A stretch of DNA of 64,000 bases from an uncultured Methanosarcinales archaeon. Lineage in GTDB: Archaea > Nanobdellota > Nanobdellia > Woesearchaeales > UBA12501. Below are positions 17,840 through 43,030 of this stretch, one piece after another. The stretch is taken from positions 6,100-70,099 of the forward strand of contig CAYFJX010000001.1 of the NCBI GenBank assembly GCA_964343705.1. Direction: 5' to 3'. Both the position numbers and the translations under genes were made by a program. The notes under the pieces are model-generated. The model worked only from the letters and a program-made list of their open reading frames with translations. It searched no databases and was not told the DNA's origin. Within the stretch, counting starts at the first letter, position 1. Every line of letters starts with the position of its first letter.

Positions 17840-19270
17840 ATGAAAGATATTCTTAACCAAATCAAAAAAACTGAGTGGTATAAGCAAGCTGGAAACAGTA
17901 AAGTCTACTATATTTTTCCTCCGTGCCGAGGAGCTGCTGACCATTTGGGAACTGACTTAACAATATGGTCGCTCAAGGACAGAAAGCTAATGGAGTGGGT
18001 TTCACCACGAAAGAACTTTATTGACACTGCAACAAATGCCCTTGACAAGCAAAAAAAAGATCATGCCTTTATTGACAAGCACATGGCTGTGTGTGAGAAA
18101 AAAAGTCTTGCACTGGAAAAATTCTATGAGAAATTTCTAAAGAAAGATCCATCAACATTTGATCTCAAGAAAGTCATTGCAACATTGCAAGAACTTGAAA
18201 AGCTGAGTTATGATTACTGGCTTGATGCTTACCTCTGTGATGCATTTGATCCTGAAGGTGATAAGATGCTCAAGGAGGAAATTGAAAAGCACAAGATAAC
18301 CCTGGATGAAAATGAGATAGCTGTTTTTATGCGTACTAGCTGGCTGAATTATATGCAAGAAGAACGATTAGACATGCTTAACCTTGCCAAGAAGGTCAAA
18401 GGGAAAAAGTGTTCTATAAAAAATGCGCATGTTGAACTTGAAAAACATGCAATGAAGTTTTTTTATGTTGACAACAGCTGGGAGTCAACAACAGTGTTAA
18501 TGGTTAATGATTTTGCAAAGCGACTTGATGCAACACTTCATGGAGACATAGATAAACAGATTGCAGAGTTAGAAACAAACTGGGAAGAAAAACACACGGA
18601 GTTGCAAGAAAAACATAGCATTCCTGACGAGCTTATGAATGTTTTTTATTTCTTTAGCCAGTTATTCAAACTGAGAGATCAACGAAAAAAGCACACTCTT
18701 TTGAGCAATCATGTGTATGATATGCTGTTCCAGTGTATTGGTGAGCTCTTTGACATACGCTTCAAGCACCTTGCCGTTATAGCTGCTGAAGAAATCACTG
18801 AGCAAACAACAACAGAAGACTTAAAGAAAAAAATAAGTGAGCGAGAAGACATTATTCTCGAAGTGTATTCTAAAAAGAAGACAGATTTTTATGAAGGAGA
18901 AGAAGGAATGGAAATTGACACTGCAATTCAAAAAACCTTTGCTCACAAAGGTGACACTATAAAAGGAACACCAGCGTGTAAAGGAGTGGTGCAAGGTGTT
19001 GTACGTGTCATCAGAGGAGAAGTACACTTTAGCAAATTCAATAAAGGGGAAATATTAGTTGCTCCAATGACACGGCCAGAATACTTGCCACTTATGAAAA
19101 AAGCAAAAGCAATAGTAACAGATGAGGGTGGTGTGACCTGTCATGCTGCGATTGTATCCAGAGAACTTGGTGTACCCTGTATAATTGGTACAGGTGTAGC
19201 AACACAGAAACTCCATGATGGTGAGCTTGTTGAGGTGGACGCTGATAAAGGCGTGGTGAAACGCCTATGA
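17840..19270 (+). CDS. PEP-utilizing-enzyme swivel (phosphohistidine) domain protein, paralog 1 of 7, with uncharacterised N-terminal domain
   Basis: C-terminus GEILVAPMTRPEYLPLMKKAKAIVTDEGGVTCHAAIVSRELGVPCIIGT is the PEP-utilizers mobile-domain signature with the catalytic His. N-terminal motifs shared with the paralogs. Confidence 0.75.
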   Translation: MKDILNQIKKTEWYKQAGNSKVYYIFPPCRGAADHLGTDLTIWSLKDRKLMEWVSPRKNFIDTATNALDKQKKDHAFIDKHMAVCEKKSLALEKFYEKFLKKDPSTFDLKKVIATLQELEKLSYDYWLDAYLCDAFDPEGDKMLKEEIEKHKITLDENEIAVFMRTSWLNYMQEERLDMLNLAKKVKGKKCSIKNAHVELEKHAMKFFYVDNSWESTTVLMVNDFAKRLDATLHGDIDKQIAELETNWEEKHTELQEKHSIPDELMNVFYFFSQLFKLRDQRKKHTLLSNHVYDMLFQCIGELFDIRFKHLAVIAAEEITEQTTTEDLKKKISEREDIILEVYSKKKTDFYEGEEGMEIDTAIQKTFAHKGDTIKGTPACKGVVQGVVRVIRGEVHFSKFNKGEILVAPMTRPEYLPLMKKAKAIVTDEGGVTCHAAIVSRELGVPCIIGTGVATQKLHDGELVEVDADKGVVKRL

Positions 19271-20115
19271 GCAGAGAAACACTTGAAACGAATTTATATA
19301 CTGATGTGTGGGATGATTTTTCACGAAGATACGCGTACATGCGAACACCTGTAACCCCTTCTGTAAATGATGTAAAAATTATTGAAGAATATCTCAAGAA
19401 GATCCTAGAAACCAATTCTCAACCAAGTGTGCTTATTCTTGGTGCAACCTTTGCTTACAGGAAGATGATTGCAGAAAACAACATACCTGTCACCTTGGTT
19501 GACTTGAGCAGGCAAATGTATGATGTAAACAGCAAGATTCTTGACAATGAACTTGGATGTCCAGAGCGTACTGAAAAGCTTATCATTGCAAACTGGATGG
19601 AAATGGATCTACATCAGGAGTTTGATCTTATTATTGGAGATTTTGTTGTTAATAACATCAAAGCTGAACTTAAAGAACAGTTCCACGCACAGATAGCAAA
19701 ACACATGACACCCAATGGCTTTTTTGTGACTCGTATTATGAACCAACCAAGGAACTTGGATCCTGTTGAAGATATGTTTGCACGATTTAAGGATAAGGAA
19801 ATTAACAGGGAAACAACCAATGAATTATTGTTTGATGCACTGTGCCATTTTGGTATTGATAGAGAAAAGAACATTCTTGTTAACAAACAGCGGTGGCATA
19901 AAGTTGTTGAAGCTGCTGAGGAGTATCCGTTTATGAAAAAGTTGATTAAACACTGTGAAGAAAACGTGCCCATGGGAGATAAGGAGTGGAGTATTCTCTC
20001 AGATGCTGATCAAGAAGCAGAATTGCGAAATGCTTATAAGGTATGTGCTATTCGCTATGGTAAAGATTACATGTATTCAGATGCATGTCCAACATATGTG
20101 CTGCAACGTGTGTGA
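19267..20115 (+). CDS. Class I methyltransferase-like protein, paralog A of 4
   Basis: VLILGATFAYR (degenerate motif I), VTLVDLS, FDLIIGDFVVNNI (motif IV), MTPNGFFV. ATGA overlap with the upstream swivel-domain gene. Confidence 0.6.
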   Translation: MSRETLETNLYTDVWDDFSRRYAYMRTPVTPSVNDVKIIEEYLKKILETNSQPSVLILGATFAYRKMIAENNIPVTLVDLSRQMYDVNSKILDNELGCPERTEKLIIANWMEMDLHQEFDLIIGDFVVNNIKAELKEQFHAQIAKHMTPNGFFVTRIMNQPRNLDPVEDMFARFKDKEINRETTNELLFDALCHFGIDREKNILVNKQRWHKVVEAAEEYPFMKKLIKHCEENVPMGDKEWSILSDADQEAELRNAYKVCAIRYGKDYMYSDACPTYVLQRV

Positions 20116-20136
20116 TACAAAAAGTGTGATGCAACA

Positions 20137-20943
20137 ATGACAAAAGTAGTTGAACAATGGCGCCAAGGTTTTGTGCATTTCTGGAAGTATTACCTTCCCC
20201 CAGCGAGAGCATCACCCTCTGACCTGGAGTTCATTAAAAAGAAGATTCTTGAAAAAGGCAAGGACGTAAAAGTTCTTATTCTTGGTTCAACCTCAGAATA
20301 TAGGAATATCTGTGGAGAGCTTGGTATTCCAGTGACCTGTTTTGATTTTAGTGAATATAATTATAACTACCTAAAAGATGAAGTCAAGAAAATGCCACAG
20401 GAACGTTATGTCAATGGCAATTGGTTCACACACAAACTTGATGAGCAGTTTGACATTATTCTTGGAGATGTAATTATCAATCTACAAGACAAGAAAAAAC
20501 TGCCAAATCTTTTTAGAAACATAGCAAGCTGGCTAAAACCAAATGGGTTGTTTATGCCAAGAACCTATATCAGAGATAAGGATGAAACATGTACAGCAGA
20601 AGAAGCAATCAAAAGATACCGTAAAAAAACAGGACAAAGGTTGTATACTGGATCAACTAGAGATCTGTACCTAGCTGGATATGATTTTGAAAAAGAAACA
20701 GTAAATTTTAGGAAATTGTGGGCAATGTTGATAGATTTGCATGCACAAAAAATTGTTACAGATGAAGAGTTTGAAGATTACAAAAAGTTATCTTTTGATA
20801 CAGATATGCATTTTTACATGCCTATCCGAGAAGAGTTTGACAAACTATTCGAAGAATTCTTTACTATCAAAGAAATCATTCACGGTCCAGAACCTTATTT
20901 GAAAGAACGTATGTGGCCATTGCATGTGTTGACAACAAAGTGA
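20137..20943 (+). CDS. Class I methyltransferase-like protein, paralog B
   Basis: VLILGSTSEYR, VTCFDFS, FDIILGDVIINL, LKPNGLFM. Colinear with paralog A. Confidence 0.6.
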   Translation: MTKVVEQWRQGFVHFWKYYLPPARASPSDLEFIKKKILEKGKDVKVLILGSTSEYRNICGELGIPVTCFDFSEYNYNYLKDEVKKMPQERYVNGNWFTHKLDEQFDIILGDVIINLQDKKKLPNLFRNIASWLKPNGLFMPRTYIRDKDETCTAEEAIKRYRKKTGQRLYTGSTRDLYLAGYDFEKETVNFRKLWAMLIDLHAQKIVTDEEFEDYKKLSFDTDMHFYMPIREEFDKLFEEFFTIKEIIHGPEPYLKERMWPLHVLTTK

Positions 20944-21029
20944 TTATTTCTAAGCTAATTTGGCATTCTAAGCGCTAGATACCACAACATTTATATATAA
21001 GTTATAATCTATAAGTTATAAGTGGAATC

Positions 21030-21224
21030 ATGAATACAACTGTTGCTGTTAAAGAAGACACATTTGCATTATTGAAAGATGTAAAAGAAAAAACAGAAGC
21101 ACCTAGTTTTGATGAGGTAATAAAAAAGTTGATCATGGAAACAAAAAAACCAAAAAAAAGTCTTAGAGGATTGGCAAAAAATACACCTGAATTTGTGAGG
21201 GAAGAAATTGACCGTTTTGCTTGA
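21030..21224 (+). CDS. vapB: VapB-like antitoxin
   Basis: 64-aa ORF immediately upstream of, and overlapping, a PIN-domain gene. Two direct repeats ATAAGTTATAA lie in its promoter. Confidence 0.5.
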   Translation: MNTTVAVKEDTFALLKDVKEKTEAPSFDEVIKKLIMETKKPKKSLRGLAKNTPEFVREEIDRFA

Positions 21225-21585
21225 TTCCTGGGCATGGATAGAATATTTCCGAGATGGTAAAAAGGCCGATATAATAGAAGAATATGTAGAAAGTAATGTA
21301 ACAATTTTCATCAGTTCAGTCAGCATATCTGAAGTATTTAGATGGTTATTAGGAAACGAGACAAAAGCATTGGCAAAAAAGTTGACACAAGAAATGATCC
21401 ACAGATCTTTAGTTGTTCCCGTGCATAATATCATTGCTTGGAAAGCAGCAGAACTAAAACATGAGCATAAGTGGGGATTAGGAGATGCTCTTATTTATGC
21501 AACTGCCCAAGAAAACAAATCAGTTTTAGTAACAGGTGACAGTGATTTTAAAGAAATTAAAGATGTTACTTATCTGGGAAATTAA
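21208..21585 (+). CDS. vapC: PIN-domain ribonuclease toxin VapC
   Basis: PIN acidic residues in LLDSWAWIEYF, GDALIYATA and TGDSDF. 125 aa. Confidence 0.8.
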   Translation: MTVLLDSWAWIEYFRDGKKADIIEEYVESNVTIFISSVSISEVFRWLLGNETKALAKKLTQEMIHRSLVVPVHNIIAWKAAELKHEHKWGLGDALIYATAQENKSVLVTGDSDFKEIKDVTYLGN

Positions 21586-22385
21586 TCATTTTTCAAAATA
21601 TAAATAGGATGGTTTGCATGCTTCTCATCATCCTTGCCACGCATCACTTCCTTGATAACAAAGTGTTTACTCAGTAGTTCTTCAAATGGTTCTTTGTGCA
21701 TGATATGCAAATGCAAATCTCCTTTCCCAATTGCTCCAAATGCATTAAAGAAGTTATCAAGTTGTTCTTGGTTGATTTTGTTTTGTTCCCTAAGTTTTTT
21801 CATATAGTTTAATGCATCACTCACGCGCGATGCGCCATTTTCCAAAGGGCCAAATGCACAAGGAAATTTTACCATCAAATATGCCATATGTTGACCAGGT
21901 GCTTTTCTTAGAACTTCTTCTTCTGTTTCTTCAACACGAATCATTGCTTTGAGTACAAACACACCACCTTGCTTTAGTGATTTCTTTACCTGCAACAAAA
22001 AGGGTTCAAAGTCACTGACAGGCACAATGTTTATTGATTGTTCTGCAAATGCAACATCGAATTGTTCAGTAAAAGGTAGGTCTAACCAATTGCATTGAAC
22101 AAGATTTTCATCGCAGGACTCCCTAGTCATGAGTTGTTTCATACCCTCAAGCATGTCCGGGTTTATATCTGCACAAGTAACGCGTAATTTGTTTTTTGCT
22201 CCAAGGTCTCTAAACTCTGGTGTTGATCCAAGAATAAGAAGGTCTTTGCCGCTCTGTTCAGCCATAAGCTTGTCAAACACCACTATCTCCTTTTCACTTG
22301 GCCGTGCTGGAAACACAGCTCTCCGCCAGGCTTCTACAAACTGAGAATATCGTGCTGCATTTGGTGGTTGCTGTTCTGGTTGCAT
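21582..22385 (-). CDS. Class I methyltransferase-like protein, paralog C
   Basis: LLILGSTPEFR, VTCADIN, FDVAFAEQSINIV, LKQGGVFV. Same family as paralogs A, B and D. Confidence 0.6.
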   Translation of the reverse strand: MQPEQQPPNAARYSQFVEAWRRAVFPARPSEKEIVVFDKLMAEQSGKDLLILGSTPEFRDLGAKNKLRVTCADINPDMLEGMKQLMTRESCDENLVQCNWLDLPFTEQFDVAFAEQSINIVPVSDFEPFLLQVKKSLKQGGVFVLKAMIRVEETEEEVLRKAPGQHMAYLMVKFPCAFGPLENGASRVSDALNYMKKLREQNKINQEQLDNFFNAFGAIGKGDLHLHIMHKEPFEELLSKHFVIKEVMRGKDDEKHANHPIYILKND

Positions 22386-22387: not shown

Positions 22388-23695
22388 TTATTCAGAATTG
22401 TACATCGCTTCAAAGGTTTCTTGCAAAAATTTAGCAACAACAGTATGATCTGGGATACGACCAACTGCTAAACGTATTGTTCCAGGTGGGTAATCAGAAG
22501 GAATACCAAGTGTGCTTTCACCAATCATAAGATAGCGTTCATCACCTAAACTGACTTGGTATGAGATTGGTGAGCGTACATCACTTTCTACACGAGCAAT
22601 AAACTCTTTTTCCCTTGCAAGTTTTTCTTTTGCTGTTTTTCCGGCAAGTTCAAAGGTCACCACACCGCCTGCCAAACCATCGCGTGAAAGATCACCAAGA
22701 TCTGGGTAGTGCACCGTATCAACATGAGGTGAATCTTGTAGGAATCTTGTTACAAGCCCATAGGCGTTATTAGTATGATCTCTCATACGTTGTGGAAGAT
22801 CTGCAAGGCGGTGATATAATGTTTCAGCAACTGTTTGATCTATCACTGATCCAGTTACTGTTTGCCATGCTCGCAGGTGTCTAATGAAATCTTTTGGTCC
22901 AATAACTGCACCACCAAGAACATCGCCATGACCACTTATGTACTTGGTCATAGAATGTATAACAATGTCAGCTCCCATACGGAATGGTTGTTGTAAGTAA
23001 GGTGTAAGAAATGTATTATCTACAATCACTGGAATACCATGTTCCTGTGCCATACGTGCAACTTTGCGTGTGTCTGTTACTTCAATAAGTGGGTTAGTAA
23101 CTCCTTCATAAAACAGAGCAATGGTTTGCCTGCCCCTTTCTTGTAATGCTTTGTATACTTCTGCAAGGTTAGTTGTATCTACAGCAAGTGCTTTATTGAT
23201 ACAAGTTTCCTGTGGAATAACTTCATCAAAAACAGCTTCTGTATTAACAAAAACTGTTTTCCCACGCATAAAAAAAAGATCAATATGTTCCCTGTTTGAA
23301 TGCTCTATATTTCGAGCTAGTGCCTTTGCAACGCCGTAAATGGCAGCCATGCCAGAGGGGAATACGGTTGCATCAATAAAATCAAAGGGATCTCCTTCAT
23401 CAGCAAAGTAGCCTGCTTCTGCTTCCACCAAGCGGTCACATAATACTCGTTCTTGTGGTGTGCCTGCGCGTGCGTAGAAATAGCCATCCCGAGAACCTTC
23501 TAGAACTTGGCCAAGATACCCCTCCCCATCCATATTAAAACTTGTTCTTGAAGGCAGTCCAAGATCAGGACCTCGAGCAAGACTTACTTTCAAAGGACCG
23601 ATATCATCAGAGCTTTGTTTAGTGGCAAGTAATTCTTTTGCTCTCTGCCAATCTGCTCCAAAAAAATCATGTACCAACATTCTACGGGCAACCAT
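22388..23695 (-). CDS. PLP-dependent Cys/Met-metabolism family enzyme (cystathionine gamma-synthase / O-acetylhomoserine sulfhydrylase-like)
   Basis: PLP-lysine context SMTKYISGHGDVLGG with DNTFLTP upstream. 435 aa. 2-nt gap to MTase paralog C. Confidence 0.8.
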   Translation of the reverse strand: MVARRMLVHDFFGADWQRAKELLATKQSSDDIGPLKVSLARGPDLGLPSRTSFNMDGEGYLGQVLEGSRDGYFYARAGTPQERVLCDRLVEAEAGYFADEGDPFDFIDATVFPSGMAAIYGVAKALARNIEHSNREHIDLFFMRGKTVFVNTEAVFDEVIPQETCINKALAVDTTNLAEVYKALQERGRQTIALFYEGVTNPLIEVTDTRKVARMAQEHGIPVIVDNTFLTPYLQQPFRMGADIVIHSMTKYISGHGDVLGGAVIGPKDFIRHLRAWQTVTGSVIDQTVAETLYHRLADLPQRMRDHTNNAYGLVTRFLQDSPHVDTVHYPDLGDLSRDGLAGGVVTFELAGKTAKEKLAREKEFIARVESDVRSPISYQVSLGDERYLMIGESTLGIPSDYPPGTIRLAVGRIPDHTVVAKFLQETFEAMYNSE

Positions 23696-23783: not shown

Positions 23784-25217
23784 ATGAGACTTATAAAGCT
23801 ACAAACAAAGGGCAATTGCTATCCTGATGTTAATATTCAAGCAATTGCGGTGATGTTGTTGTGTGATTATCACAAGGCATTTGGTGTATCCTTTGGTTTG
23901 GATGTTGTTACTACTTTTGAAAATGAGACAATGGTCTGGTATGGTTATGATGAAGAGTATGAACGGCTAAAAAAAGAAACAAGCGCTCTTCTTATGGAAA
24001 AACCAGAGTTGGCAAAAAAATGTCAAAAGAATTTTTTTGAAGGAGCAAAAGTATTCCTGGAATTTATTAAGAAAATCAACCAAACAAACTTTAGCAAGCT
24101 CAGCAACAAAGAACTCCAAGATTTATATGAAGACTATTTTAACAGAAATCGTGCATTAGGTATTTGGGGAGAGCCATTGCCACATTACACGCGAGAAGAC
24201 GTACCAAAATTTCTGCTCAAGTGCCTAAATGAAATAAGCAAAACCCCAAGCGATGATCTAAACCTACTTACTGCACCAAACTATGTTTCTTTCACAAAAC
24301 AAGAGGAGATGGACTTACTTAAGATTGCCATACAGATCAAAGCAGATCCAGAAAATACAGAACTCAAAGAACAACTCATTAAAGAACACACCAAGAAATG
24401 GTTTTGGATACCTTATGATTATGGTGTAACAACATGGGATGAAAAGCATTTCATGGATGAGCTTGAAGAGGTACAAGATCCAGAAAAAAAACTCAAAGAA
24501 ATAGAAATCACATATAAGGAACTACCAAAAAAACAACAAGCTCGACTTAAAGAACTAGCCATTGATCCACATACAGAAGAGATTTTCCAAGCACTACAAA
24601 TTTGCACTATTCTCATGGATTACAAAAAAGAAGTATTTACTAAAGCACATTATTCAACACGTCGCTTGCATAAAGAAATAGCACAGCGACTTGGACTCAC
24701 ATATGAACAAACCAAAGTACTGCTCATAAAAGAAGTAAGCCAAGCACTCTTAGAAAACAAACCCCCTACACCTGAAGAACTTGATGGACGACTCAAATTT
24801 AGTGTATTAAAACTCAGCAAGGATGGAGAGTACAGCTTTGTAAGTGGTGAAAAAGCAAAGGAATGGGTCAAAAGAATACAAGCAGATGAAGAGAAGTCAG
24901 ATGAACTCACTGGCTTTCCTGCATGCAAAGGACAATACACTGGTACTGTTCGGTGTATTCTTGATGCAAGAAATATTCATGAACTAAAAAAAGGAGAAGT
25001 ATTAGTCACATACATGACAAGCCCTGACTACACTATTGGCATGAAAAAAGCAGGAGCTATTGTAACAGATGAAGGTGGCATTAGCAGTCACGCGGCGATT
25101 GTGTCCCGTGAGTTAGGAGTGCCATGTGTAATTGGAACAAAGCACGCAACGCGTGTACTAAAAACAGGTGATAGAGTTGCAGTTGATGCAGAAAAAGGAG
25201 TCATTACAAAACTATAA
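23784..25217 (+). CDS. PEP-utilizing swivel-domain protein, paralog 2
   Basis: C-terminus GEVLVTYMTSPDYTIGMKKAGAIVTDEGGISSHAAIVSRELGVPCVIGT, plus FWIPYDY. The ORF-track start at 23622 overlaps the PLP gene, so the start was moved to Met55 (MRLIKLQ). Confidence 0.7.
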   Translation: MRLIKLQTKGNCYPDVNIQAIAVMLLCDYHKAFGVSFGLDVVTTFENETMVWYGYDEEYERLKKETSALLMEKPELAKKCQKNFFEGAKVFLEFIKKINQTNFSKLSNKELQDLYEDYFNRNRALGIWGEPLPHYTREDVPKFLLKCLNEISKTPSDDLNLLTAPNYVSFTKQEEMDLLKIAIQIKADPENTELKEQLIKEHTKKWFWIPYDYGVTTWDEKHFMDELEEVQDPEKKLKEIEITYKELPKKQQARLKELAIDPHTEEIFQALQICTILMDYKKEVFTKAHYSTRRLHKEIAQRLGLTYEQTKVLLIKEVSQALLENKPPTPEELDGRLKFSVLKLSKDGEYSFVSGEKAKEWVKRIQADEEKSDELTGFPACKGQYTGTVRCILDARNIHELKKGEVLVTYMTSPDYTIGMKKAGAIVTDEGGISSHAAIVSRELGVPCVIGTKHATRVLKTGDRVAVDAEKGVITKL

Positions 25218-31614: not shown

Positions 31615-31615
31615 A

Positions 31616-36631: not shown

Positions 36632-37948
36632 ATGAATCAAAAGAACCAAAAAGAACTTATCAAGAAAGTAAACACCATGAAATGGGAGCATTGGTTGTAT
36701 AGAAACTTCCCTCCTTTTAGTGGCCATATTATTGCTTCTGGAGCATTACCTTCTGAATATGAACGCATGGGGTACCCGGCAAAGGGTGTTGAGGGTTTTA
36801 TTTATGACAGTAACAATTGGTGGCGTTGCATGCCTGTATACGATGCAAGTGCAGATTGGGTAGATGAGTACTTACAAAAGCACACTGTTTTCGAAACAAC
36901 CAAAGCAATCCAGAAACATTATGATAAATACAAAAACAGAATTAAAGAGATTGCTGCTGACACAAGTAGCGACCCAATTGAACAATTTAGGGAAGTATGT
37001 GATATTCTTAGGCCAATCTGTGTGTGGATTTGGATTTGCCACCAGTTTGAAGTATGGATAAAGAAGGAAGTAAAAAAACAAATCCCTCCCTTTCTTAAAA
37101 AAGGAGAAGATCTTGATTTGTATGTGGGGGATATAAGTCTTCCAACAAAAAAGAACCACCATGAGCTCATGGCAGACGCCCTGATTGCAGGACAAGACCC
37201 AAAAGAAGTACATAAAGAATATGGATGGATCAAAGCACGAGGTAGAAGTGGATTTGCAAAAGGGTACACACTTGAAGAAGTAAAGCAAATGCAAAAAGAC
37301 TTACAAAAGAAAAAGAGCCACAAACTTAAACCAAAAAAAGTACCAGCTGAACTTGAAGAACTTCAAAAGCAATTGCAAGAATTAGTGTGGTTTCGCTTAT
37401 TCCGGACAGATATTGCGTACGAATTTGTATATAATTCACACCCACTCTTTGAAAGAGTTGCAAAAGCACGGGGTATTGAAAAAGTAGAAGACTACCTGTA
37501 CACCGACATTCTTGATACAACTAAGGAACCAAAAAAGTATGACCCCAATAATTATGCAGTACTAAAAGAAGGCACCACCCTTCTTATTGTCGACCACGCA
37601 GTCTTGGAACATGATGAAGTCAAAGACACTGAACTTAAAGGAGTGACTGCAATGAGAGGCAAAGCAACAGGCACAGCAAAAATAGTTATGAATGTTAATG
37701 ACATGCACAAAGTCAAGAAAGGAGATATTCTTGTAACTCCCATGACTATTGCACCTTATGTTCCTGCAATGGAGCGATCAGCAGCGTTTGTAACTGACGA
37801 AGGAGGTATTACCTGCCACGCAGCTATTCTCTCGCGAGAAATGAGCAAGCCATGCATTATTGGAACTAAAAAAGCAACCAGTGCATTTAAAGATGGTGAT
37901 GTTCTCGAAGTAGACGCTGATGCAAGCATTGTTAAGAAAATACGATAA
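36632..37948 (+). CDS. PEP-utilizing swivel-domain protein, paralog 6 (most divergent)
   Basis: C-terminus GDILVTPMTIAPYVPAMERSAAFVTDEGGITCHAAILSREMSKPCIIGT. N-terminus has MKWEHWLYRNF. Confidence 0.7.
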   Translation: MNQKNQKELIKKVNTMKWEHWLYRNFPPFSGHIIASGALPSEYERMGYPAKGVEGFIYDSNNWWRCMPVYDASADWVDEYLQKHTVFETTKAIQKHYDKYKNRIKEIAADTSSDPIEQFREVCDILRPICVWIWICHQFEVWIKKEVKKQIPPFLKKGEDLDLYVGDISLPTKKNHHELMADALIAGQDPKEVHKEYGWIKARGRSGFAKGYTLEEVKQMQKDLQKKKSHKLKPKKVPAELEELQKQLQELVWFRLFRTDIAYEFVYNSHPLFERVAKARGIEKVEDYLYTDILDTTKEPKKYDPNNYAVLKEGTTLLIVDHAVLEHDEVKDTELKGVTAMRGKATGTAKIVMNVNDMHKVKKGDILVTPMTIAPYVPAMERSAAFVTDEGGITCHAAILSREMSKPCIIGTKKATSAFKDGDVLEVDADASIVKKIR

Positions 37949-37968: not shown

Positions 37969-39588
37969 TTATCCAACAACCTTTTTGTTCTTCATCCACT
38001 GATGCACAATTTTTGCGCTTTCTTTTGTTGCCTTTGGAGACCAATGGTTTCCTGCTTGATTGTACCATTCAAGTGTTTGGGGAGTGAAATGATTATGCAA
38101 GTCAATGAAATCAATTCCATGCTTTTCTGAACAGGACTGCAACTTTGTTCGCATAAGCTCAAGATCAAAGTCATCTGGATCTGCACCAATATACGATTTC
38201 ATAGTTCGCTGAAAAGAAGGTGCATGAAGTTCTGCTTTAGACGGCACATACAGAACCAAGAATGGCACGTCAGTTGACTGTTGAAAGATGCGCAGCACTG
38301 CGTCGCAATTAAATGTGTATGCTTCTTGTGCTTGAGGAAGCAACTCTTTGCGTACCATTTGATAAATATCCATTTCTATTGGTTTTTCTTCCATTACTCT
38401 GCGTCGATTAAGCAGAACATCTTTGTTTTTGTCAATGAGCGCCAGGAAGTGTGATGAATACACAAACGGCCCTTGCCGTTTACCAATGCTATTCTTCTTT
38501 TCTTTAAATGGAACAAACATGTCAGCACGAACGTTTTTTGTTTCAAAGTCATACAGGGGTTTTTCATAATGTTTTATTTCAAGGTTACCTCGCACGTCAT
38601 TGAAAGAATGTACCAACACCACGGCATCTGGTTGGTATTCTTTGTATACTCGTTGGTAGAGTAGCAAACTTTGAAGTGTTGATATACCACTGATTCCCCC
38701 GTTAAGAACTTCAACTTTTTCACTGAAGGATTCACCCAATGACTCACCTAAGTAATGACTAAGTGTTTGATCTTGATCTAGACCTGCTCCAAAAGCAAAG
38801 GAGTCACCCACAACTAAAACGCGTTTAACACCTGTTGGTTTTTCCAGAGTGATATTATTGTCCATACGAAATGCGTGATTGTTCATGTGGAATGTTGCCA
38901 GGCCAGGAGGGTTTTCACTCATCTTGACAATTCTACAATTAGGAAGTGTTCCAATACCTGCTGCAAGCAAACGAGGATCATCACCAAGAAGACTAATTTC
39001 TTTTCCATCTCCTAGGCTAATAGCAATTGGATTAATCAAGGTAACATCTCGCGCCATGAGTTCAACTTCTCCTGTTTCACCAAGATGTAATCGCTTGTCT
39101 TTAACTGTAAAATATTGCGTACAGTCTCTTTTGTTCTGATTCAAAATAGATAAGCCAAGGGTTGTATTCTGCTGTGCTTGAGGATAGGTTGTTGCAAGTG
39201 AGAATTCAACAACCACTGATGAAACAACTAGAATACTAATGAAGAGTAAGATGCTCAGCTTCTTGTTCCAAGCCCTACCAAAGAGATGTTTCCATCTTCT
39301 CGGCTTTCGAAGAGGAGGGATAAATATAAGCGCAAAAAGAAGAGGTGCAAATAACCCCCACAATGCCAATTCAAGTATCTCAGGGGCAAACGAAAAACTG
39401 AGAGTGTTAAAAACCAGAGAGAAAAAATGAGTCAACATTAATTTCCCCACTGAAACCCATTCTAGCCCCAGTGTTCCCAGATCTTCAATGTAAAAAGGGT
39501 GAATTTGATGGGGAACTGGAATAAACATCAAGAGTAGAAAAAGTGCAATAAGCACGTGCTTCTTCTTTAAGGTTGCTTTGAGATCCAT
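37969..39588 (-). CDS. SGNH/GDSL-like membrane protein, paralog 2
   Basis: Four N-terminal TM helices with IPVPHQIHPFYIED, RVLVVGDSFAFGAGLDQDQTLSHYL, and C-terminal EWYNQAGNHWSPKAT. Confidence 0.6.
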   Translation of the reverse strand: MDLKATLKKKHVLIALFLLLMFIPVPHQIHPFYIEDLGTLGLEWVSVGKLMLTHFFSLVFNTLSFSFAPEILELALWGLFAPLLFALIFIPPLRKPRRWKHLFGRAWNKKLSILLFISILVVSSVVVEFSLATTYPQAQQNTTLGLSILNQNKRDCTQYFTVKDKRLHLGETGEVELMARDVTLINPIAISLGDGKEISLLGDDPRLLAAGIGTLPNCRIVKMSENPPGLATFHMNNHAFRMDNNITLEKPTGVKRVLVVGDSFAFGAGLDQDQTLSHYLGESLGESFSEKVEVLNGGISGISTLQSLLLYQRVYKEYQPDAVVLVHSFNDVRGNLEIKHYEKPLYDFETKNVRADMFVPFKEKKNSIGKRQGPFVYSSHFLALIDKNKDVLLNRRRVMEEKPIEMDIYQMVRKELLPQAQEAYTFNCDAVLRIFQQSTDVPFLVLYVPSKAELHAPSFQRTMKSYIGADPDDFDLELMRTKLQSCSEKHGIDFIDLHNHFTPQTLEWYNQAGNHWSPKATKESAKIVHQWMKNKKVVG

Positions 39589-39620: not shown

Positions 39621-39624
39621 TTGT

Positions 39625-39836: not shown

Positions 39837-39846
39837 CGAATCAGAG
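39837..39846. repeat. 10-bp direct repeat CGAATCAGAG (right copy)
   Basis: Matches 39625..39634. Confidence 0.4.
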
Positions 39847-39851
39847 GAAGC

Positions 39852-39859
39852 TTTAAATA
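39852..39859 (+). promoter_or_regulatory. TATA box for swivel-domain paralog 7
   Basis: TTTAAATA 23 nt upstream of the ATG at 39882. Confidence 0.35.
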
Positions 39860-39881
39860 GGTGATGACTAACCCGAGGAAC

Positions 39882-41318
39882 ATGGAAATCAGCAAGTTTA
39901 CAAACAAGAAATGGGTCATACAGGGTGCTGTCATCACACCTCACCTGAACGCGTTTGCAGTCGATGCACTCACCAAGGGCCTCCAAGATATTACAGGACA
40001 TGGTTTGAGTGTTATTCTCACGTTTATGACACAAGAAGGAGAGTACAGCCATTGGGTACTTGATGAAGAATCATTGAATACAGAGGGAAAATGGTATGAT
40101 GATCACCCTGAAGAACTCAAGAAACTCTTCATGGCATGGGAAAAAGCGCGTGATGTCTATTATGAATACATTGAAGGCATCATGGAAAAAGGTGTTACTG
40201 ACCCCATTACAGAATACAAGCAATTTAGAGAACATTATCAAAATGCGTACGCTCATGCTCTTGTGACAGAACACTTTATTGTGTGGGGTGACAAGATACT
40301 TGCAACAATTCTTGAAAAGATACCTAAAGAAAAAAGAAAACAGGTTGAAATACTGACTGCACCAATCAAACACACTTTCTTAAATGATGAGGAGCTTGGC
40401 CTTCTTAAGATAGGATTACAATTTAAGCAAACAGGAAAAATCTCTGAAGAAGACTTGAAGAAACACACTAAGAAATTTTTCTGGATCAGAAACAATTACA
40501 AGAACACTAAGCCAATGAGTTTACAAGAATTTGAAAAACGTTTGCATGCATCCATTGCAGAACTAACTGAAAAACAAGTTACAGCAAAGATTGCAGAGTT
40601 AGAAACATATGAGCAAGATCTAATTAAGAAAAAAGAACAAGCTCGAGAAAAGCTTGGCTTGGCAAAGGAAGATGAGGAAAAGCTTGAACTTCTTTCTTTA
40701 GTTGCATGGTGGCATGACCAACGTAAAAAAGGAAATCTTCTTGGCGATCATGTTGCAGGATTGTTTTTTGAAAAAGCGGCAAAAGACCATACCGCTCCCT
40801 TAATTGATATTAAATTTATGCTGCCAGATGAATTCTTAAAGTTTCTCGAAACAGGAGAGTACAATAAAGATGAAATACAAGAACGAAAAAAAGCATGTGT
40901 GTACATAACAGCAAATACAGGTGAGAAAAGCATGCATACTGGGAAGACCTATGAAGAACTTAGTGAAACAGTACTTGAACAAGAATATGAAGAAAAAATA
41001 AAGGATGTTCGTGGAATGACTGCTTCGTATGGCCATGCAAAAGGTCCAGTAAAAGTAGTTCTAAACCCCAAGGATACTGATATAGAAAAAGGAGACGTTC
41101 TTGTAACAAGTATGACAAGGCCTGAATATGTCCCTCTTATGAAAAAAGCAGCAGCAATAGTAACAGATGAAGGAGGAGTTACAAGTCATGCAGCTGTAAT
41201 TTCACGAGAATTGGGAATACCTTGTATTGTTGGTACACGTATTGGAACAAAGGTACTTAAGGACGGCATGGTTGTTGAAGTCCGTTGTAACCATGGCCTT
41301 GTTAAGATTTGTGATTAA
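39882..41318 (+). CDS. PEP-utilizing swivel-domain protein, paralog 7
   Basis: NKKWVIQGA, KFFWIRNNY, WHDQRKK, and C-terminus GDVLVTSMTRPEYVPLMKKAAAIVTDEGGVTSHAAVISRELGIPCIVGT. Start set at the ATG positioned for the TATA box. The ORF track starts at a GTG at 39861. Confidence 0.7.
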   Translation: MEISKFTNKKWVIQGAVITPHLNAFAVDALTKGLQDITGHGLSVILTFMTQEGEYSHWVLDEESLNTEGKWYDDHPEELKKLFMAWEKARDVYYEYIEGIMEKGVTDPITEYKQFREHYQNAYAHALVTEHFIVWGDKILATILEKIPKEKRKQVEILTAPIKHTFLNDEELGLLKIGLQFKQTGKISEEDLKKHTKKFFWIRNNYKNTKPMSLQEFEKRLHASIAELTEKQVTAKIAELETYEQDLIKKKEQAREKLGLAKEDEEKLELLSLVAWWHDQRKKGNLLGDHVAGLFFEKAAKDHTAPLIDIKFMLPDEFLKFLETGEYNKDEIQERKKACVYITANTGEKSMHTGKTYEELSETVLEQEYEEKIKDVRGMTASYGHAKGPVKVVLNPKDTDIEKGDVLVTSMTRPEYVPLMKKAAAIVTDEGGVTSHAAVISRELGIPCIVGTRIGTKVLKDGMVVEVRCNHGLVKICD

Positions 41319-41332
41319 GCCTACAACGTATC

Positions 41333-43030
41333 TTATGAAGCATTGAGCACTCCGTTCTCCATCATCCATTCTTTGACACTATGTGCAGTAACATTGGTTG
41401 CTCGTGGAGACCAGTGACCTCCTGGTCGATTATACCACTCCCGCGGGCGCACATTTCTATGAGAATTAAACACTTCAGCCAAGTCAAGTAAGGGAATACC
41501 ATGTTTTTTTGCACAGACATGGATATACGCATTGCCTTGTAACCTGTCAAATTCACCTGGATCTGCATCAAGATAGCTTCTGATTGTTCTTTTAAAGTAA
41601 GGCTCGTCAAGTTCAATGTGAGGTGGAATGTAAATCAACAAAAAGGTTGCATTGTTTGCCAGAACAAGATCATAAAAAGGTTTGAGAACATAATTACAAT
41701 TAACGTTAAGAGCGTGGATCATAGATTGAGGAGGTTTTGTATTGAAGACATGAAACATAGATAAGTGACGAGGATTATCCCCCATAATTCGTTTTAGATT
41801 AAGTAGCTCATTTTTGACACCCTCAGCAAAGGAGACAAAATGAGAATAGGGAACAAGCGGTCCTGTGCTGGAACTAATGCCAAGGCGATCAATAGCTTTC
41901 CCAATAGGAGCATGCCGAATTAAGGTTTCATCTTGCAGAGAAAAAATAGGCATCTCATAATCAGATCGCTGTTCAAGATTACCATTGATATCATTAGGGT
42001 AGTGAAAAAAAAGCACTATATCAGGATCCCAATATTGTAAGGTGTCATTGTACATCAAATAACTTTGTAGAGAAGAAAAGCCTTGTACACCTGCGTTCAA
42101 AACTTGCGTTGTATCGCTTGTTAGTGCATTAAGATAATGACTCACTGTTTCATCTTGATCCATGCCCGCACCAAACGCAAAAGAATCTCCCATAACCATA
42201 ACTCGCTGTGAAATATTTTCTTTAGAACGGGTCACATTTTTTTGCATACGAAAACCATGATTATTAGTAACATAATCAACAAGATGAGTGCCGTCTTCAC
42301 CAACTTTTCTTGCTTTACAGTTGGGAACATTCTTAATCCCTGCTGAAACATTAAATCTGATTTCCACATTCTTCCCTGAAGCCGAATCAATTATTTTGGA
42401 AGGAGATGTAAGAACATAATGATGAAAATGGAACCCTCGCAATACTTTTCTCCCATCTGATTCAACTGGAGCAACAAAAGGACAATAAATCTGACTTGAT
42501 AATTCTTTTGCAACATCAGGAGAAATTTTCTTAGTAGGAAAAGACATTGCAAATACCAGCTCAATAACCAAGAGTATGATTATGCAAGTAGCAATACCTA
42601 ACAACAAATTCTTTGCCACAGTTCTATTGAACCCAGGTTGAAAGGAAAAAACAGGTTTAGACAAAAACCTTGGACCAAACCTAGGCAAGCCAGCTGCTGC
42701 TAAACACGTAAAAAAAAAGACTAAAGAACAATACAAAAAAACAGGGAGAACCAGCCCCCATATAAAAACATGGAACGTATAAGGATTAAAGGTTAATGTA
42801 AGAGCGTACAAAACAGAGGTTATTGCATGTGAGAAGAAAATGTTCCCTAGGAAAGCAGACTCAATTCCAAATGTGCCAACTTGTTCTATGTAAAATGCAT
42901 GTATCTCATGAGGAAAAGGAATCAGACAAACCAGGACAAAGATAAGAAGGTAAATTATACGAACTCTTGTCAATTCCCGAGAAAACCTCCTGAGAAAAGC
43001 CCTACTACCAGTTTTTCCTCTATCCCCCAT
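41333..43030 (-). CDS. SGNH/GDSL-like membrane protein, paralog 3
   Basis: IPFPHEIHAFYIEQ TM domain, RVMVMGDSFAFGAGMDQDETVSHYL, and C-terminal EWYNRPGGHWSPRAT. Confidence 0.6.
   Translation of the reverse strand: MGDRGKTGSRAFLRRFSRELTRVRIIYLLIFVLVCLIPFPHEIHAFYIEQVGTFGIESAFLGNIFFSHAITSVLYALTLTFNPYTFHVFIWGLVLPVFLYCSLVFFFTCLAAAGLPRFGPRFLSKPVFSFQPGFNRTVAKNLLLGIATCIIILLVIELVFAMSFPTKKISPDVAKELSSQIYCPFVAPVESDGRKVLRGFHFHHYVLTSPSKIIDSASGKNVEIRFNVSAGIKNVPNCKARKVGEDGTHLVDYVTNNHGFRMQKNVTRSKENISQRVMVMGDSFAFGAGMDQDETVSHYLNALTSDTTQVLNAGVQGFSSLQSYLMYNDTLQYWDPDIVLFFHYPNDINGNLEQRSDYEMPIFSLQDETLIRHAPIGKAIDRLGISSSTGPLVPYSHFVSFAEGVKNELLNLKRIMGDNPRHLSMFHVFNTKPPQSMIHALNVNCNYVLKPFYDLVLANNATFLLIYIPPHIELDEPYFKRTIRSYLDADPGEFDRLQGNAYIHVCAKKHGIPLLDLAEVFNSHRNVRPREWYNRPGGHWSPRATNVTAHSVKEWMMENGVLNAS

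What the first reader, a model, noticed from the sequence alone, without database searches (positions are those of the whole stretch)
17840..43030. Accessory island: seven-fold expansion of swivel-phosphohistidine (PEP-utilizer) proteins, interleaved with MTase-like and SGNH-like paralog families
Seen in sequence: seven ORFs (17840, 23784, 27099, 28629, 30112, 36632, 39882) share a nearly invariant C-terminal block, GD/E-ILV-x-MT-x-P-x-Y-x-P-x-M-x-KA-x-AIVTDEGG-x-T/S-C/S-HAAI-x-SRE-x-G-x-PC-x-IGT. By established knowledge this is the PEP-utilizing-enzyme mobile (swivel) phosphohistidine domain of PEP synthase, PPDK, PTS enzyme I and rifampin phosphotransferase. Here it is fused to a ~350-aa N-terminal domain with its own conserved motifs (KKWY-x-QGF, FFWI-R/K-N-x-Y, WQDERKK) and no recognisable ATP-grasp or PEP/pyruvate TIM-barrel partner. 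They are interleaved and translationally coupled with other genes. Paralog 1 overlaps MTase-like paralog A by ATGA, and the paralog-5 stop lies 2 nt before SGNH paralog 1. The partners are four class-I-MTase-like paralogs, three SGNH/GDSL-fold membrane paralogs, a PLP enzyme, an LbH acyltransferase, an alpha/beta hydrolase and pta. Inference: a diversifying phosphotransfer/methylation/acyl-transfer toolkit. One reading is decoration of surface glycans or S-layer proteins, by analogy with the Campylobacter MeOPN pathway that uses a PEP-synthase-family glutamine kinase plus MTases. Another is inactivation of small molecules by phosphorylation (Rph-like). The domain architecture and paralog array look undescribed.
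Basis: partly seen in the sequence, partly recalled or inferred. Interest (0 to 1): 0.85.

Follow-up and report, generated by a model that had tools for sequence, protein, structure and literature searches.

The report
Split small-molecule dikinase acceptor-subunit array
A tiny symbiotic archaeon carries seven diverged copies of the substrate-binding, phosphate-carrying half of a rifampin-phosphotransferase-like kinase, whose ATP-binding half is encoded once about 21 kb away; the enzyme type is known, but one ATP module apparently serving many acceptor modules has not been described and their substrates are unknown.

Summary
Seven intact ORFs carry a C-terminal PEP-utilizer swivel phosphohistidine domain after a ~340-400 aa N-domain with no Pfam match. 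They are old paralogs, not assembly duplicates.

The N-domain is not a new fold. A confident AlphaFold model aligns over 404 residues to rifampin phosphotransferase (RPH). The family motif WQDERKK aligns with RPH Arg666/Glu667/Lys670, the second phosphotransfer site.

The architecture is therefore that of the acceptor (H/A) subunit of characterised two-component dikinases (HpeHI, CreHI, PpsAB). The "missing" ATP-grasp exists: a stand-alone 312-aa PPDK_N gene lies about 4 kb left of the window on the same contig.

Relatives in DPANN archaea and CPR bacteria show arrays of 2-11 acceptor genes. About half have a single ATP-grasp gene within 10 kb, and there are fusions of one ATP-grasp with two acceptor units.

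Most likely mechanism: one ATP-grasp subunit charges the conserved swivel histidine of each paralog, and each diverged N-domain phosphorylates a different small molecule. Substrates are unknown.

In DPANN, pta, an LbH acyltransferase, a serine hydrolase and a TrmB regulator are conserved partners. The methyltransferase/PLP genes are a separate module found with the arrays only in this lineage.

Verdict: new variant of a known kind.

The parts
16796..17803 (+). pta (phosphate acetyl/butyryl transferase), 36 nt upstream of S1
   Evidence: PF01515 E 4.8e-91. 55% identical to a pta embedded in the related island L007. pta is present in 12 of 38 archaeal loci and 0 of 40 bacterial loci, often overlapping H genes and next to the ATP-grasp gene.
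17840..19270 (+). S1, acceptor (H-type) subunit: RIF-binding-like N-domain plus swivel His domain
   Evidence: PF00391 E 8.8e-28 at residues 400-471. Motif LRDQRKK at the RPH R666/E667/K670 position. Only 22-28% N-domain identity to any other copy.
19267..20115 (+). Methyltransferase-like A, ATGA overlap with S1
   Evidence: Weak Methyltransf_12/25 hits. Member of family A4 with motif VLILG(S/A)TPE(F/Y)RD. Junction read.
20137..20943 (+). Methyltransferase-like B
   Evidence: Methyltransf_25/11 hits. 48% identical to L004 14346-15143.
21582..22385 (-). Methyltransferase-like C
22388..23695 (-). PLP enzyme of the Cys/Met-metabolism family (gamma-lyase/gamma-synthase type)
   Evidence: PF01053 E 6.4e-54. 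NCBIfam best hits are methionine gamma-lyase and cystathionine gamma-synthase, all below their curated cut-offs. 39% identical to the L004 copy.
23784..25217 (+). S2, acceptor subunit
   Evidence: PF00391 E 1.9e-26. Motif LMDYKKE. Best relative is L004 16980-18422 at 35%. The longest ORF starts at GTG 23622, which would overlap the PLP gene.
25234..26106 (+). Methyltransferase-like D (longest ORF from GTG 25168)
   Evidence: Methyltransf_31 E 1.3e-6. 44% identical to the L004 methyltransferase that follows the S3 orthologue. Start inferred from alignment A4.
26081..26809 (-). TrmB-family transcriptional regulator, divergent from S3 across a 289-nt gap
   Evidence: PF01978 E 6.7e-16. The same divergent pairing with the S3-type gene is seen in 16 of 17 other placements; the family occurs in 19 loci.
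27099..28604 (+). S3, the conserved core acceptor subunit; first gene of the S3-S4-S5-SGNH1-LbH-hydrolase operon
28629..30098 (+). S4, acceptor subunit
   Evidence: PF00391 E 7.7e-26. WQDERKK present. 41% N-domain identity to S5.
30112..31614 (+). S5, acceptor subunit
   Evidence: PF00391 E 3e-25. Motif FQDNRKV.
31616..32926 (+). SGNH/GDSL-fold protein 1 with one N-terminal TM segment, 1 nt after S5
   Evidence: ALGX and Lipase_GDSL_2 hits. TM scan and 31-34% identity to the other two SGNH proteins.
32966..34111 (+). LbH (hexapeptide-repeat) acyltransferase
   Evidence: Hexapep E 2.7e-9. NCBIfam O-acetyltransferase families. 53-57% identical copies in L004 and L007. Present in 10 of 38 archaeal loci.
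34163..35467 (+). Membrane-anchored serine hydrolase (GHSSG nucleophile elbow), always downstream of LbH
   Evidence: Weak Abhydrolase_1 hit. 38-42% identical copies after LbH in L004 and L007. One N-terminal TM segment.
36632..37948 (+). S6, deviant acceptor subunit: swivel intact, N-domain motifs lost
   Evidence: PF00391 E 1.3e-22. FRLFRTD in place of WQDERKK. No relative above 28% identity.
37969..39588 (-). SGNH/GDSL-fold membrane protein 2
   Evidence: Lipase_GDSL_2 E 6.4e-11. Three TM-like segments.
39882..41318 (+). S7, acceptor subunit
   Evidence: PF00391 E 7.9e-25. Motif WHDQRKK.
41333..43030 (-). SGNH/GDSL-fold membrane protein 3
   Evidence: Lipase_GDSL_2 E 3.7e-6. Three TM-like segments.

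Best explanation
The seven proteins are acceptor (H-type) subunits of a split, RPH-like small-molecule dikinase.

Proposed mechanism:
1. A separate ATP-grasp subunit binds ATP and transfers the beta-phosphate to the conserved histidine of the swivel domain. In this genome the candidate is a 312-aa PPDK_N protein encoded about 21 kb upstream of pta.
2. The swivel domain swings back onto its own N-domain, the homologue of the rifampin-binding domain of RPH.
3. There a Q...D-x-R-K site passes the phosphate to a bound small molecule. Net reaction: ATP + X + H2O -> AMP + Pi + X-P.

The swivel domains are well conserved and the N-domains highly diverged. This suggests that one donor charges all seven (eight with its own operon partner), and that each paralog phosphorylates a different substrate.

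Shown here: domain homology, conservation of the phosphotransfer residues in five or six of seven copies, presence of the ATP-grasp gene on the same contig, and recurrent linkage of one ATP-grasp gene to several acceptor genes in relatives.

Inferred: phosphorylation in trans, the one-to-many relay, and small-molecule substrates.

Substrates are unknown. Conserved DPANN partners are pta, a CoA-dependent LbH acyltransferase, a membrane-anchored serine hydrolase, phosphohydrolases and a TrmB regulator. These point to processing of scavenged or envelope-bound small molecules involving phospho- and acyl-intermediates. The SAM methyltransferase/PLP module is a lineage-specific addition.

Sequence: profile alignments reach into the RPH, PigC and PRK05849 central domains. 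A three-domain CPR enzyme aligns to all seven paralogs over its central plus swivel regions, E down to 6e-41.

Catalytic site: WQDERKK aligns with RPH Y665-R666-E667-Y-P-K670. R666A and E667A abolish rifampin phosphorylation (PMC4844700). D-x-R-K is kept in S1, S3, S4, S5 and S7, and D-x-K-K in S2.

Precedent: HpeHI, CreHI and PpsAB have the same split (PMC12167813).

Donor: a stand-alone PPDK_N of 312 aa sits on the same contig. It is 55% identical to the I-type subunit of a related DPANN island.

One-to-many linkage:
- CPR operon ATP-grasp -> H -> H -> HAD -> H.
- A fusion of one PPDK_N with two H units.
- An H-plus-ATP-grasp fusion at the end of an 11-copy island.
- Of 48 related loci of at least 15 kb, 36 have two or more H genes and 25 have an ATP-grasp gene, almost always a single one.

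Divergence: N-domain identity averages 20.7% against 54.9% for the swivel.
Against: No biochemistry exists for any member of this clade.

The ATP-grasp gene here is 21 kb from the island. It is translationally coupled to an eighth swivel protein with a different N-domain, so it may serve only that partner.

About half of the related loci show no ATP-grasp within 10 kb.

S6 lacks the phosphotransfer motif, and S2 has only part of it.

The swivel motif is PEP-synthase-like, with the regulatory Thr, rather than RPH/HpeH-like (Met). This leaves open a different donor or an additional layer of regulation.

NCBIfam models that probably represent PpsA/HpeH-type subunits (PRK08296, my reading) match only the swivel part.

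HTH-fused and TrmB-linked S3-type members hint at a regulatory rather than a catalytic role for that subfamily.
Confidence: 0.65

Rival explanations
1. Same enzyme class, but the biological role is a detoxification battery. Each paralog would inactivate a different host- or community-derived antibiotic or toxin by phosphorylation, as RPH does with rifamycins. Arms-race selection would drive the expansion and the divergence of the N-domains.
For: RPH is the only solved structure matching the whole protein. The RPH family is described as widespread, with some members acting on antibiotics. The arrays are large and the N-domains fast-diverging. The family is shared between CPR and DPANN at up to 57% identity, as expected for exchanged accessory genes. 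Toxin-antitoxin genes are interspersed in the island.
Against: No resistance-type neighbours such as efflux pumps were seen. The S3 subfamily is conserved at 57-63% across domains, which looks like a fixed housekeeping substrate. Conserved linkage to pta, LbH and HAD/HD phosphohydrolases suggests the phospho-product is an intermediate rather than a dead end. There are no PADLOC hits, although PADLOC covers anti-phage systems only.
Confidence: 0.2
2. The acceptor subunits work without an ATP-grasp. They would be charged by a phospho-metabolite, for example acetyl phosphate made by the adjacent Pta or another phosphorylated small molecule, and act as transphosphorylases between metabolites.
For: pta is adjacent to S1, and is embedded in or overlapping H genes in 12 of 38 archaeal loci. 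HpeH alone catalyses phosphotransfer from 4-phosphoacetophenone to acetovanillone. There is no ATP-grasp within the island or within 10 kb in about half of the loci.
Against: From general knowledge, phosphohistidine in this family has a higher group-transfer potential than acetyl phosphate, so charging His from acetyl-P is uphill. pta is absent from all 40 bacterial loci, which still carry arrays. In DPANN relatives pta usually sits beside the ATP-grasp gene rather than replacing it. An ATP-grasp gene is present on this contig.
Confidence: 0.1
3. The proteins, or at least the S3 subfamily, are regulatory phosphocarriers or sensors rather than enzymes. Ligand binding in the N-domain and the phosphorylation state of the swivel His would control transcription or partner proteins, by analogy with PTS-linked regulation.
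For: S3-type proteins are fused to an XRE-type HTH in at least five CPR loci. They are paired divergently with a TrmB regulator in 16 of 17 placements, including this window. The swivel motif keeps the PEP-synthase regulatory Thr.
Against: The phosphotransfer residues of the acceptor site are strongly conserved in the S3 subfamily (invariant W301 Q302 D303 E304 R305 K306 K307 in alignment A7). That is expected for catalysis. A divergent regulator next to an operon is also ordinary operon control. Most paralogs have no DNA-binding link.
Confidence: 0.1
4. Surface-glycan or S-layer decoration pathway analogous to Campylobacter O-methyl phosphoramidate synthesis (kinase plus methyltransferases).
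For: Methyltransferases are translationally coupled to S1 and adjacent to S2. Membrane-anchored SGNH (AlgX-like) proteins, an LbH acyltransferase and a hydrolase sit in the same operon as S3-S5.
Against: Pfam scans of the window's larger ORFs found no cytidylyltransferase, glutamine amidotransferase/amidase or glycosyltransferase. The methyltransferase family is absent from all 78 related loci, and SGNH genes occur in only 2. The methyltransferase/PLP module occurs alone in a CPR genome. The methyltransferase fold is generic small-molecule type.
Confidence: 0.07
5. Artefact: assembly duplications, or decaying fragments of PEP synthase genes.
For: None beyond the repeated C-terminal block.
Against: Whole-protein identity to S3 is 25-36% and all ORFs are intact. 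The locus was recovered in independent assemblies. There are thousands of homologous clusters with the same architecture. The N-domain is neither an ATP-grasp nor a TIM barrel.
Confidence: 0.01

Closest known systems
HpeH / CreH / PpsA, acceptor subunits of the two-component small-molecule dikinases HpeHI, CreHI and phenylphosphate synthase PpsAB (PMC12167813)
   Same: Same domain architecture: an RPH rifampin-binding-like substrate domain followed by a C-terminal swivel phosphohistidine domain, with no ATP-grasp. A separate ATP-grasp (PPDK_N-only) subunit of about 310 aa is encoded in the genome. [quoted passage not shown]
   Different: The known systems are 1:1 adjacent gene pairs acting on phenolic substrates in aromatic catabolism of free-living bacteria. 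Here there are seven (eight) acceptor genes to one detected ATP-grasp gene, which is 21 kb away. The N-domains are about 100-200 aa shorter. NCBIfam PRK08296 models, which I take to be the PpsA-like family, match only the swivel part. The swivel motif is PEP-synthase-type GGxT(C/S)H rather than the GGxM.H type of HpeH and RPH. The hosts are DPANN/CPR symbionts, and no aromatic-catabolic genes were seen nearby.
Rifampin phosphotransferase RPH (PDB 5FBS/5FBT/5FBU/5HV1)
   Same: Fold of the N-domain and swivel. Conserved second-phosphotransfer residues: RPH R666/E667/K670 against the family's Q-D-x-R-K.
   Different: RPH has the ATP-grasp fused at its N-terminus, is single-copy, and acts on rifamycins. 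Sequence identity is only about 15-17%.
PigC / RedH / HapC prodiginine condensing enzymes
   Same: NCBIfam PigC aligns to S3 residues 254-499, covering the central and swivel domains. Same superfamily.
   Different: Three-domain fused enzymes that activate an aldehyde for condensation. Scores are far below the family cut-offs (68 bits versus 1300).
PEP synthase (PpsA) and pyruvate phosphate dikinase
   Same: The swivel domain is most similar to archaeal PEP synthase (8a8e, E 3e-49), including the regulatory-Thr motif. The genome's ATP-grasp subunit also resembles the PpsA N-domain most closely (for a DPANN orthologue).
   Different: No PEP/pyruvate-binding TIM barrel (PF02896) is present. The acceptor domain has an unrelated helical fold.
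Campylobacter Cj1418 L-glutamine kinase / MeOPN pathway (compared from my own knowledge, not tested by sequence here)
   Same: An RPH-type dikinase encoded near SAM methyltransferases.
   Different: Cj1418 carries its own ATP-grasp. The pathway's cytidylyltransferase, amidase and second kinase were not found in the window.

Membership tests
PEP-utilizer mobile (swivel) phosphohistidine domain, PF00391 | Match to the Pfam model above the gathering score | tested here: met
   All seven score 79.7-96.2 bits against a cut-off of 23.1, over the full-length domain.
PEP-utilizer mobile (swivel) phosphohistidine domain, PF00391 | Catalytic His in the T/S-x-x-G-G-x-x-x-H loop | tested here: met
   TDEGG(V/I)(T/S)(C/S)HAA is present in all seven. 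The motif definition comes from PMC12167813.
RPH-like small-molecule dikinase superfamily | Central substrate-binding domain with the RPH rifampin-binding-domain fold | tested here: met
RPH-like small-molecule dikinase superfamily | Residues of the second phosphotransfer site (RPH Arg666, Glu667, Lys670) | tested here: inconclusive
   The HMM alignment puts WQDERKK opposite Y665-R666-E667-Y-P-K670. The acidic residue and the Lys are aligned; the Arg is shifted by three positions. The motif is kept in S1, S3, S4, S5 and S7, partial in S2 and lost in S6. The spatial arrangement could not be inspected.
RPH-like small-molecule dikinase superfamily | ATP-grasp domain in the same polypeptide | tested here: not met
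   No PPDK_N hit in any of the seven. No tblastn hit anywhere in the window.
Two-component small-molecule dikinases (HpeHI / CreHI / PpsAB) | Acceptor subunit made of a substrate-binding domain plus swivel, without an ATP-grasp | tested here: met
   architecture as described.
Two-component small-molecule dikinases (HpeHI / CreHI / PpsAB) | Separate ATP-grasp-only subunit encoded in the genome | tested here: met
   A 312-aa PPDK_N-only gene lies on the same contig, about 3.7-4.7 kb left of window position 1. Orthologous stand-alone subunits sit within related DPANN islands.
Two-component small-molecule dikinases (HpeHI / CreHI / PpsAB) | One acceptor gene paired with one adjacent ATP-grasp gene | tested here: not met
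   Seven acceptor genes sit 21-45 kb from the single detected ATP-grasp gene, which is itself coupled to an eighth, different swivel protein. Relatives show 2-11 acceptor genes per ATP-grasp gene.
Two-component small-molecule dikinases (HpeHI / CreHI / PpsAB) | Sequence-level membership in the PpsA/HpeH subunit family | tested here: not met
   NCBIfam PRK08296 models align only to the C-terminal ~105-125 residues and score far below their cut-offs. That PRK08296 represents PpsA-like proteins is my assumption. HpeH, CreH and PpsA sequences themselves were not available to compare.
Two-component small-molecule dikinases (HpeHI / CreHI / PpsAB) | ATP-dependent phosphorylation of a small molecule requiring both components, via phospho-His | not testable with these tools
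   Needs biochemistry.
PEP synthase / PPDK | C-terminal PEP/pyruvate-binding TIM barrel (PF02896) and N-terminal ATP-grasp | tested here: not met
   Neither domain is detected. PpsA and PPDK structures align only over the swivel domain.
PTS Enzyme I | HPr-binding helical subdomain and PEP-binding domain flanking the swivel | tested here: not met
   EI structures align over about 100 residues only, with Foldseek TMq at most 0.19.
MeOPN (O-methyl phosphoramidate) pathway | Glutamine kinase with ATP-grasp plus cytidylyltransferase, gamma-glutamyl amidase and a 3'-kinase | tested here: not met
   None of these were found among the window ORFs scanned with Pfam. The pathway composition is from my own knowledge.

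The most novel reading that the evidence does not exclude
The arrays are a combinatorial phosphohistidine relay typical of ultra-small symbionts and exchanged between CPR bacteria and DPANN archaea. One ATP-grasp module would charge up to about eleven interchangeable acceptor modules, giving a compact multi-substrate kinase toolkit.

In DPANN the relay would be wired to Pta and a CoA-dependent LbH acyltransferase. Some acceptor modules would phosphorylate carboxylates to acyl phosphates, Pta would convert these to acyl-CoA, and LbH, SGNH and the hydrolase would transfer or trim acyl groups at the envelope. That would be a previously unknown route of carboxylate activation and of using host-derived compounds in organisms lacking standard pathways.
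Probability: 0.15. Interest if true: 0.8.

Novelty: new variant of a known kind. Interest (0 to 1): 0.55.

Why it matters
The enzyme class is established: an RPH-like dikinase split into an ATP-grasp subunit and an acceptor subunit. Only a handful of members have known substrates, namely rifamycins, phenolics, prodiginine precursors and glutamine.

This window belongs to a very large uncharacterised clade. There are 4,712 clusters at 50% identity, and every related locus I recovered came from a genome labelled, or plausibly mislabelled, as DPANN or CPR. These organisms have about 1 Mb genomes yet spend 1% or more of their coding capacity on up to eleven diverged copies.

If one ATP-grasp really serves many acceptor modules, this is a modular multi-substrate kinase system of a kind not described. 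Its substrates could show what these symbionts take up, activate or neutralise.

The hypothesis is directly testable with a small set of recombinant proteins.

Tried and rejected
- **Assembly duplication.** Rejected: whole-protein identity to S3 is 25-36%, and the locus appears in independent assemblies.
- **ATP-grasp or its remnant inside the window.** tblastn with CPR and five DPANN ATP-grasp proteins found nothing at E <= 10 apart from chance-level fragments. The gene was then found just outside the window. The right flank has none.
- **Anti-phage defence.** No PADLOC hit for the swivel proteins.
- **MeOPN-like pathway.** Its other enzymes were not found.
- **Swivel, methyltransferase and SGNH genes as one conserved triad.** Rejected by a census of 78 loci.
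- **Technical failure.** A 22-sequence N-domain alignment (A6) was too divergent for the pattern-based genome scan, so a five-sequence S3-subfamily alignment (A7) was used instead. This biases the 78 loci towards genomes that have an S3-type gene.
- **Literature.** Searches for this family in DPANN/CPR found nothing specific.
- **dN/dS.** Not attempted, because at about 20% protein identity synonymous sites are saturated.

Full report
**Observation.** Pfam PF00391, the PEP-utilizer mobile domain, matches the last ~72 residues of the domain region in each, with E from 1e-22 to 9e-28. Nothing in Pfam matches the preceding 340-400 residues. All seven keep the loop TDEGG(V/I)(T/S)(C/S)HAA that carries the phospho-histidine.

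Whole proteins are 25-36% identical to S3. Pairwise identity averages 20.7% (12.8-40.6) in the N-domains and 54.9% (47-68) in the swivel domains. Parts of the locus occur in separate assemblies of four sequencing runs of PRJEB17505. These are old paralogs, not assembly duplicates.

The ATGA overlap between S1 and the first methyltransferase gene is real. The S5 stop is 1 nt from the SGNH-1 start.

The neighbours are as described:
- pta
- four class I methyltransferase-like genes
- a Cys/Met-metabolism PLP enzyme
- a TrmB regulator
- an LbH acyltransferase
- a membrane-anchored GxSxG hydrolase
- three membrane-anchored SGNH proteins

The flanks are archaeal housekeeping genes: aRF1 with an intein, L37ae and prefoldin.

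**What the N-domain is.** A profile of the seven proteins aligns to rifampin phosphotransferase (RPH) structures beyond the swivel domain. NCBIfam models of PigC, RPH and PRK05849 likewise align to S3 from about residue 254 onward.

In the HMM alignment, the family's most conserved N-domain motif, WQDERKK, lies opposite RPH Y665-R666-E667-Y-P-K670. In RPH these residues hold the phosphate and His825, and R666A and E667A abolish rifampin phosphorylation while leaving the ATP half-reaction (PMC4844700). D-x-R-K is kept in S1, S3, S4, S5 and S7. S2 has D-x-K-K, and S6 has lost the motif.

**Architecture is already described.** Dexter et al. (PMC12167813) characterise HpeHI and group it with CreHI and phenylphosphate synthase PpsAB as two-component small-molecule dikinases:
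- HpeI is an ATP-grasp subunit.
- HpeH consists of the RPH rifampin-binding-like domain plus the swivel domain.
- RPH is the only PDB structure aligning over most of HpeH, as I find for S3.

Differences remain. The swivel motif here is the PEP-synthase type, with the regulatory Thr, where HpeH and RPH have Met. The swivel is most similar to archaeal PEP synthase. NCBIfam PRK08296 models match only the swivel part.

**Where the ATP-grasp is.** tblastn with the ATP-grasp of a three-domain CPR enzyme, and with five stand-alone DPANN ATP-grasp proteins, finds nothing in the 64 kb window. Looking up the contig beyond the left end of the window (L090) shows a stand-alone PPDK_N gene of 312 aa. It overlaps by 4 nt a 365-aa gene with a swivel domain.

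In window coordinates these two genes lie at about -4681 to -2649 on the + strand, roughly 21 kb upstream of pta. The ATP-grasp protein is 55% identical to the one in a related DPANN island and 43% to CPR ones. The 365-aa protein has a different N-domain and a GGMLSH swivel motif. The right flank holds no PPDK_N.

**Relatives.** The N-domain profile finds 4,712 clusters at 50% identity (3,155 at E <= 1e-10). Most are 470-520 aa, with some tandem fusions of two to four units. Named hits are from Nanoarchaeota, Woesearchaeota and Patescibacteria, annotated only as 'PEP-utilizing enzyme' or 'phosphohistidine swiveling domain-containing protein'. Some CPR members carry an N-terminal XRE-type HTH.

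Contexts:
- A Woesearchaeote island has 8 acceptor genes, 5 methyltransferases, the PLP enzyme, LbH and the hydrolase.
- A DPANN island has 10 acceptor genes plus a 785-aa protein that begins like the N-domain and lists the swivel before PPDK_N, with pta embedded.
- A CPR operon reads ATP-grasp (345 aa) -> H -> H -> HAD -> H, the last 57% identical to S3 in the N-domain.
- A 1,341-aa protein has one PPDK_N followed by two acceptor units.
- Stand-alone ATP-grasp proteins of about 315 aa are very abundant and 70-78% identical to the CPR query.

**Census.** A scan of species-representative genomes with an S3-subfamily alignment returned 78 loci from DPANN and CPR. I scored them with local HMMs.

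| Loci of at least 15 kb | 2 or more acceptor genes | 7 or more | ATP-grasp | pta | LbH | Methyltransferase family |
|---|---|---|---|---|---|---|
| Archaeal (24) | 15 | 5 | 13 | 8 | 8 | 0 |
| Bacterial (24) | 21 | 10 | 12 | 0 | 0 | 0 |

In the nearest relatives the order is, for example, LbH, hydrolase, pta, S3-orthologue, ATP-grasp (L015), or H, pta, H, ATP-grasp with overlapping genes (L020).

Unbiased clustering of neighbouring ORFs adds a TrmB regulator (19 loci), HAD (13) and HD (7) phosphohydrolases. TrmB is divergent and upstream of the S3-type gene in 16 of 17 other placements, as it is here.

A CPR locus carries the PLP enzyme with 12 tandem methyltransferase paralogs and no swivel genes. 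The methyltransferase/PLP set is therefore a separable module that joined the array in this lineage.

**Paralog history.** S3 has orthologues at 57-63% N-domain identity in both DPANN and CPR. S4 and S5 are a younger pair (41%). S2 has a 35% counterpart in the Woesearchaeote island. S1, S6 and S7 resemble nothing above 28%.

**Mechanism proposed.** One ATP-grasp subunit phosphorylates the conserved swivel histidine of each acceptor subunit. The swivel then docks on its own N-domain and transfers the phosphate to a bound small molecule, which differs between paralogs.

The homology, the conserved site, the presence of the donor gene and the one-to-many gene linkage are shown here. The trans reaction, the shared donor and the small-molecule substrates are inferred.

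Within the window, S3-S4-S5-SGNH1-LbH-hydrolase form one tight operon (gaps of 1-51 nt) divergent from TrmB. This links cytosolic phosphorylation to acyl chemistry at the membrane. pta linkage in DPANN suggests acyl-phosphate or acyl-CoA intermediates, but that is speculation.

The methyltransferases have a generic small-molecule class I fold with an unusual motif I. Their substrates are unknown.

**Rivals.** These are a detoxification battery (same chemistry, different role), ATP-grasp-independent transphosphorylation fed by acetyl phosphate, a regulatory phosphocarrier role for the S3 subfamily, and an MeOPN-like surface decoration. They are weighed in the rival section of this report. None is excluded except assembly artefact.

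**Novelty.** The kind is known. I found no description of the following: the many-acceptors-per-donor organisation, the PEP-synthase-type swivel on an RPH-type acceptor domain, the permuted and multi-unit fusions, the DPANN-specific pta/LbH/hydrolase/TrmB linkage, and the size and DPANN/CPR distribution of the clade.

**Caveats:**
- The library searched lacks most subscription journals.
- The 78 loci are biased towards genomes with an S3-type gene.
- Several MAG titles ('uncultured Methanosarcinales', 'Gammaproteobacteria') are probably mislabelled, and I assigned them to domains by title only.
- Only S3 and one methyltransferase were modelled.

Noticed in passing
L090 14028-16060 (minus strand); about -4681 to -2649 in window coordinates: A stand-alone ATP-grasp gene (312 aa) is translationally coupled to an eighth swivel protein (365 aa). 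Its ~255-aa N-domain does not match the family N-domain HMM, and its swivel motif is GGMLSH (RPH/HpeH-like, no regulatory Thr). A HisKA/HATPase_c kinase and a response regulator lie between it and the window start.
   Followed up: partly
window 13359-15977 (-): The aRF1 release factor (872 aa) is interrupted by an intein with a LAGLIDADG domain and an XRE-type HTH.
   Followed up: partly
window 21208-21585 (+); 35526-36116 and 36082-36576 (+): Toxin-antitoxin-type genes are interspersed in the island: a PIN-domain protein whose end overlaps methyltransferase C by 4 nt, and an overlapping nucleotidyltransferase (MNT)/HEPN pair between the hydrolase and S6.
   Followed up: partly
L009 6453-15966 (Patescibacteria GCA_028715115.1): About 12 tandem paralogs of the same unusual methyltransferase family (motif I LILG(S/A)TPE.R instead of GxGxG) follow a Cys/Met PLP enzyme, with no swivel genes nearby. 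This is a second, independent paralog-array phenomenon shared by CPR and DPANN.
   Followed up: partly
L005/L045 10001-11749; L030, L032, L033, L035: S3-type acceptor proteins are fused to an N-terminal XRE-family HTH in CPR bacteria. In L005 the fusion sits directly upstream of an 829-aa ATP-grasp + central + swivel enzyme. In DPANN the same subfamily is instead paired with a divergent TrmB regulator.
   Followed up: partly
proteins P0121, P0125, P0131, P0132, P0224: Single polypeptides of 983-2,309 aa contain two to four tandem N-domain + swivel units, and one of them has a single N-terminal ATP-grasp. Whether these are true fusions or gene-calling read-through was not checked.
   Followed up: partly
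window 45296-46729 (+): A 477-aa protein in this archaeal genome has a RelA/SpoT nucleotidyltransferase-region hit (PF04607, E 2.5e-6) and a weak PADLOC candidate hit (PDC-S33).
   Followed up: no
window 47246-57095: A cluster of large, probably secreted or surface proteins (954, 745 with a CARDB domain, and 709 aa) surrounds an exosortase/archaeosortase-family membrane protein (51635-52612).
   Followed up: no
window 15978-16795: An ~820-nt stretch between aRF1 and pta holds only a 141-aa GTG ORF (16312-16737) with no Pfam match. It is not an ATP-grasp remnant by tblastn.
   Followed up: partly
loci L012-L014, L036, L037, L041, L049, L054, L055 and others: Several MAG records titled 'uncultured Methanosarcinales archaeon' or 'uncultured Gammaproteobacteria bacterium' carry islands typical of DPANN or CPR. 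The automatic taxon labels are probably wrong.
   Followed up: no
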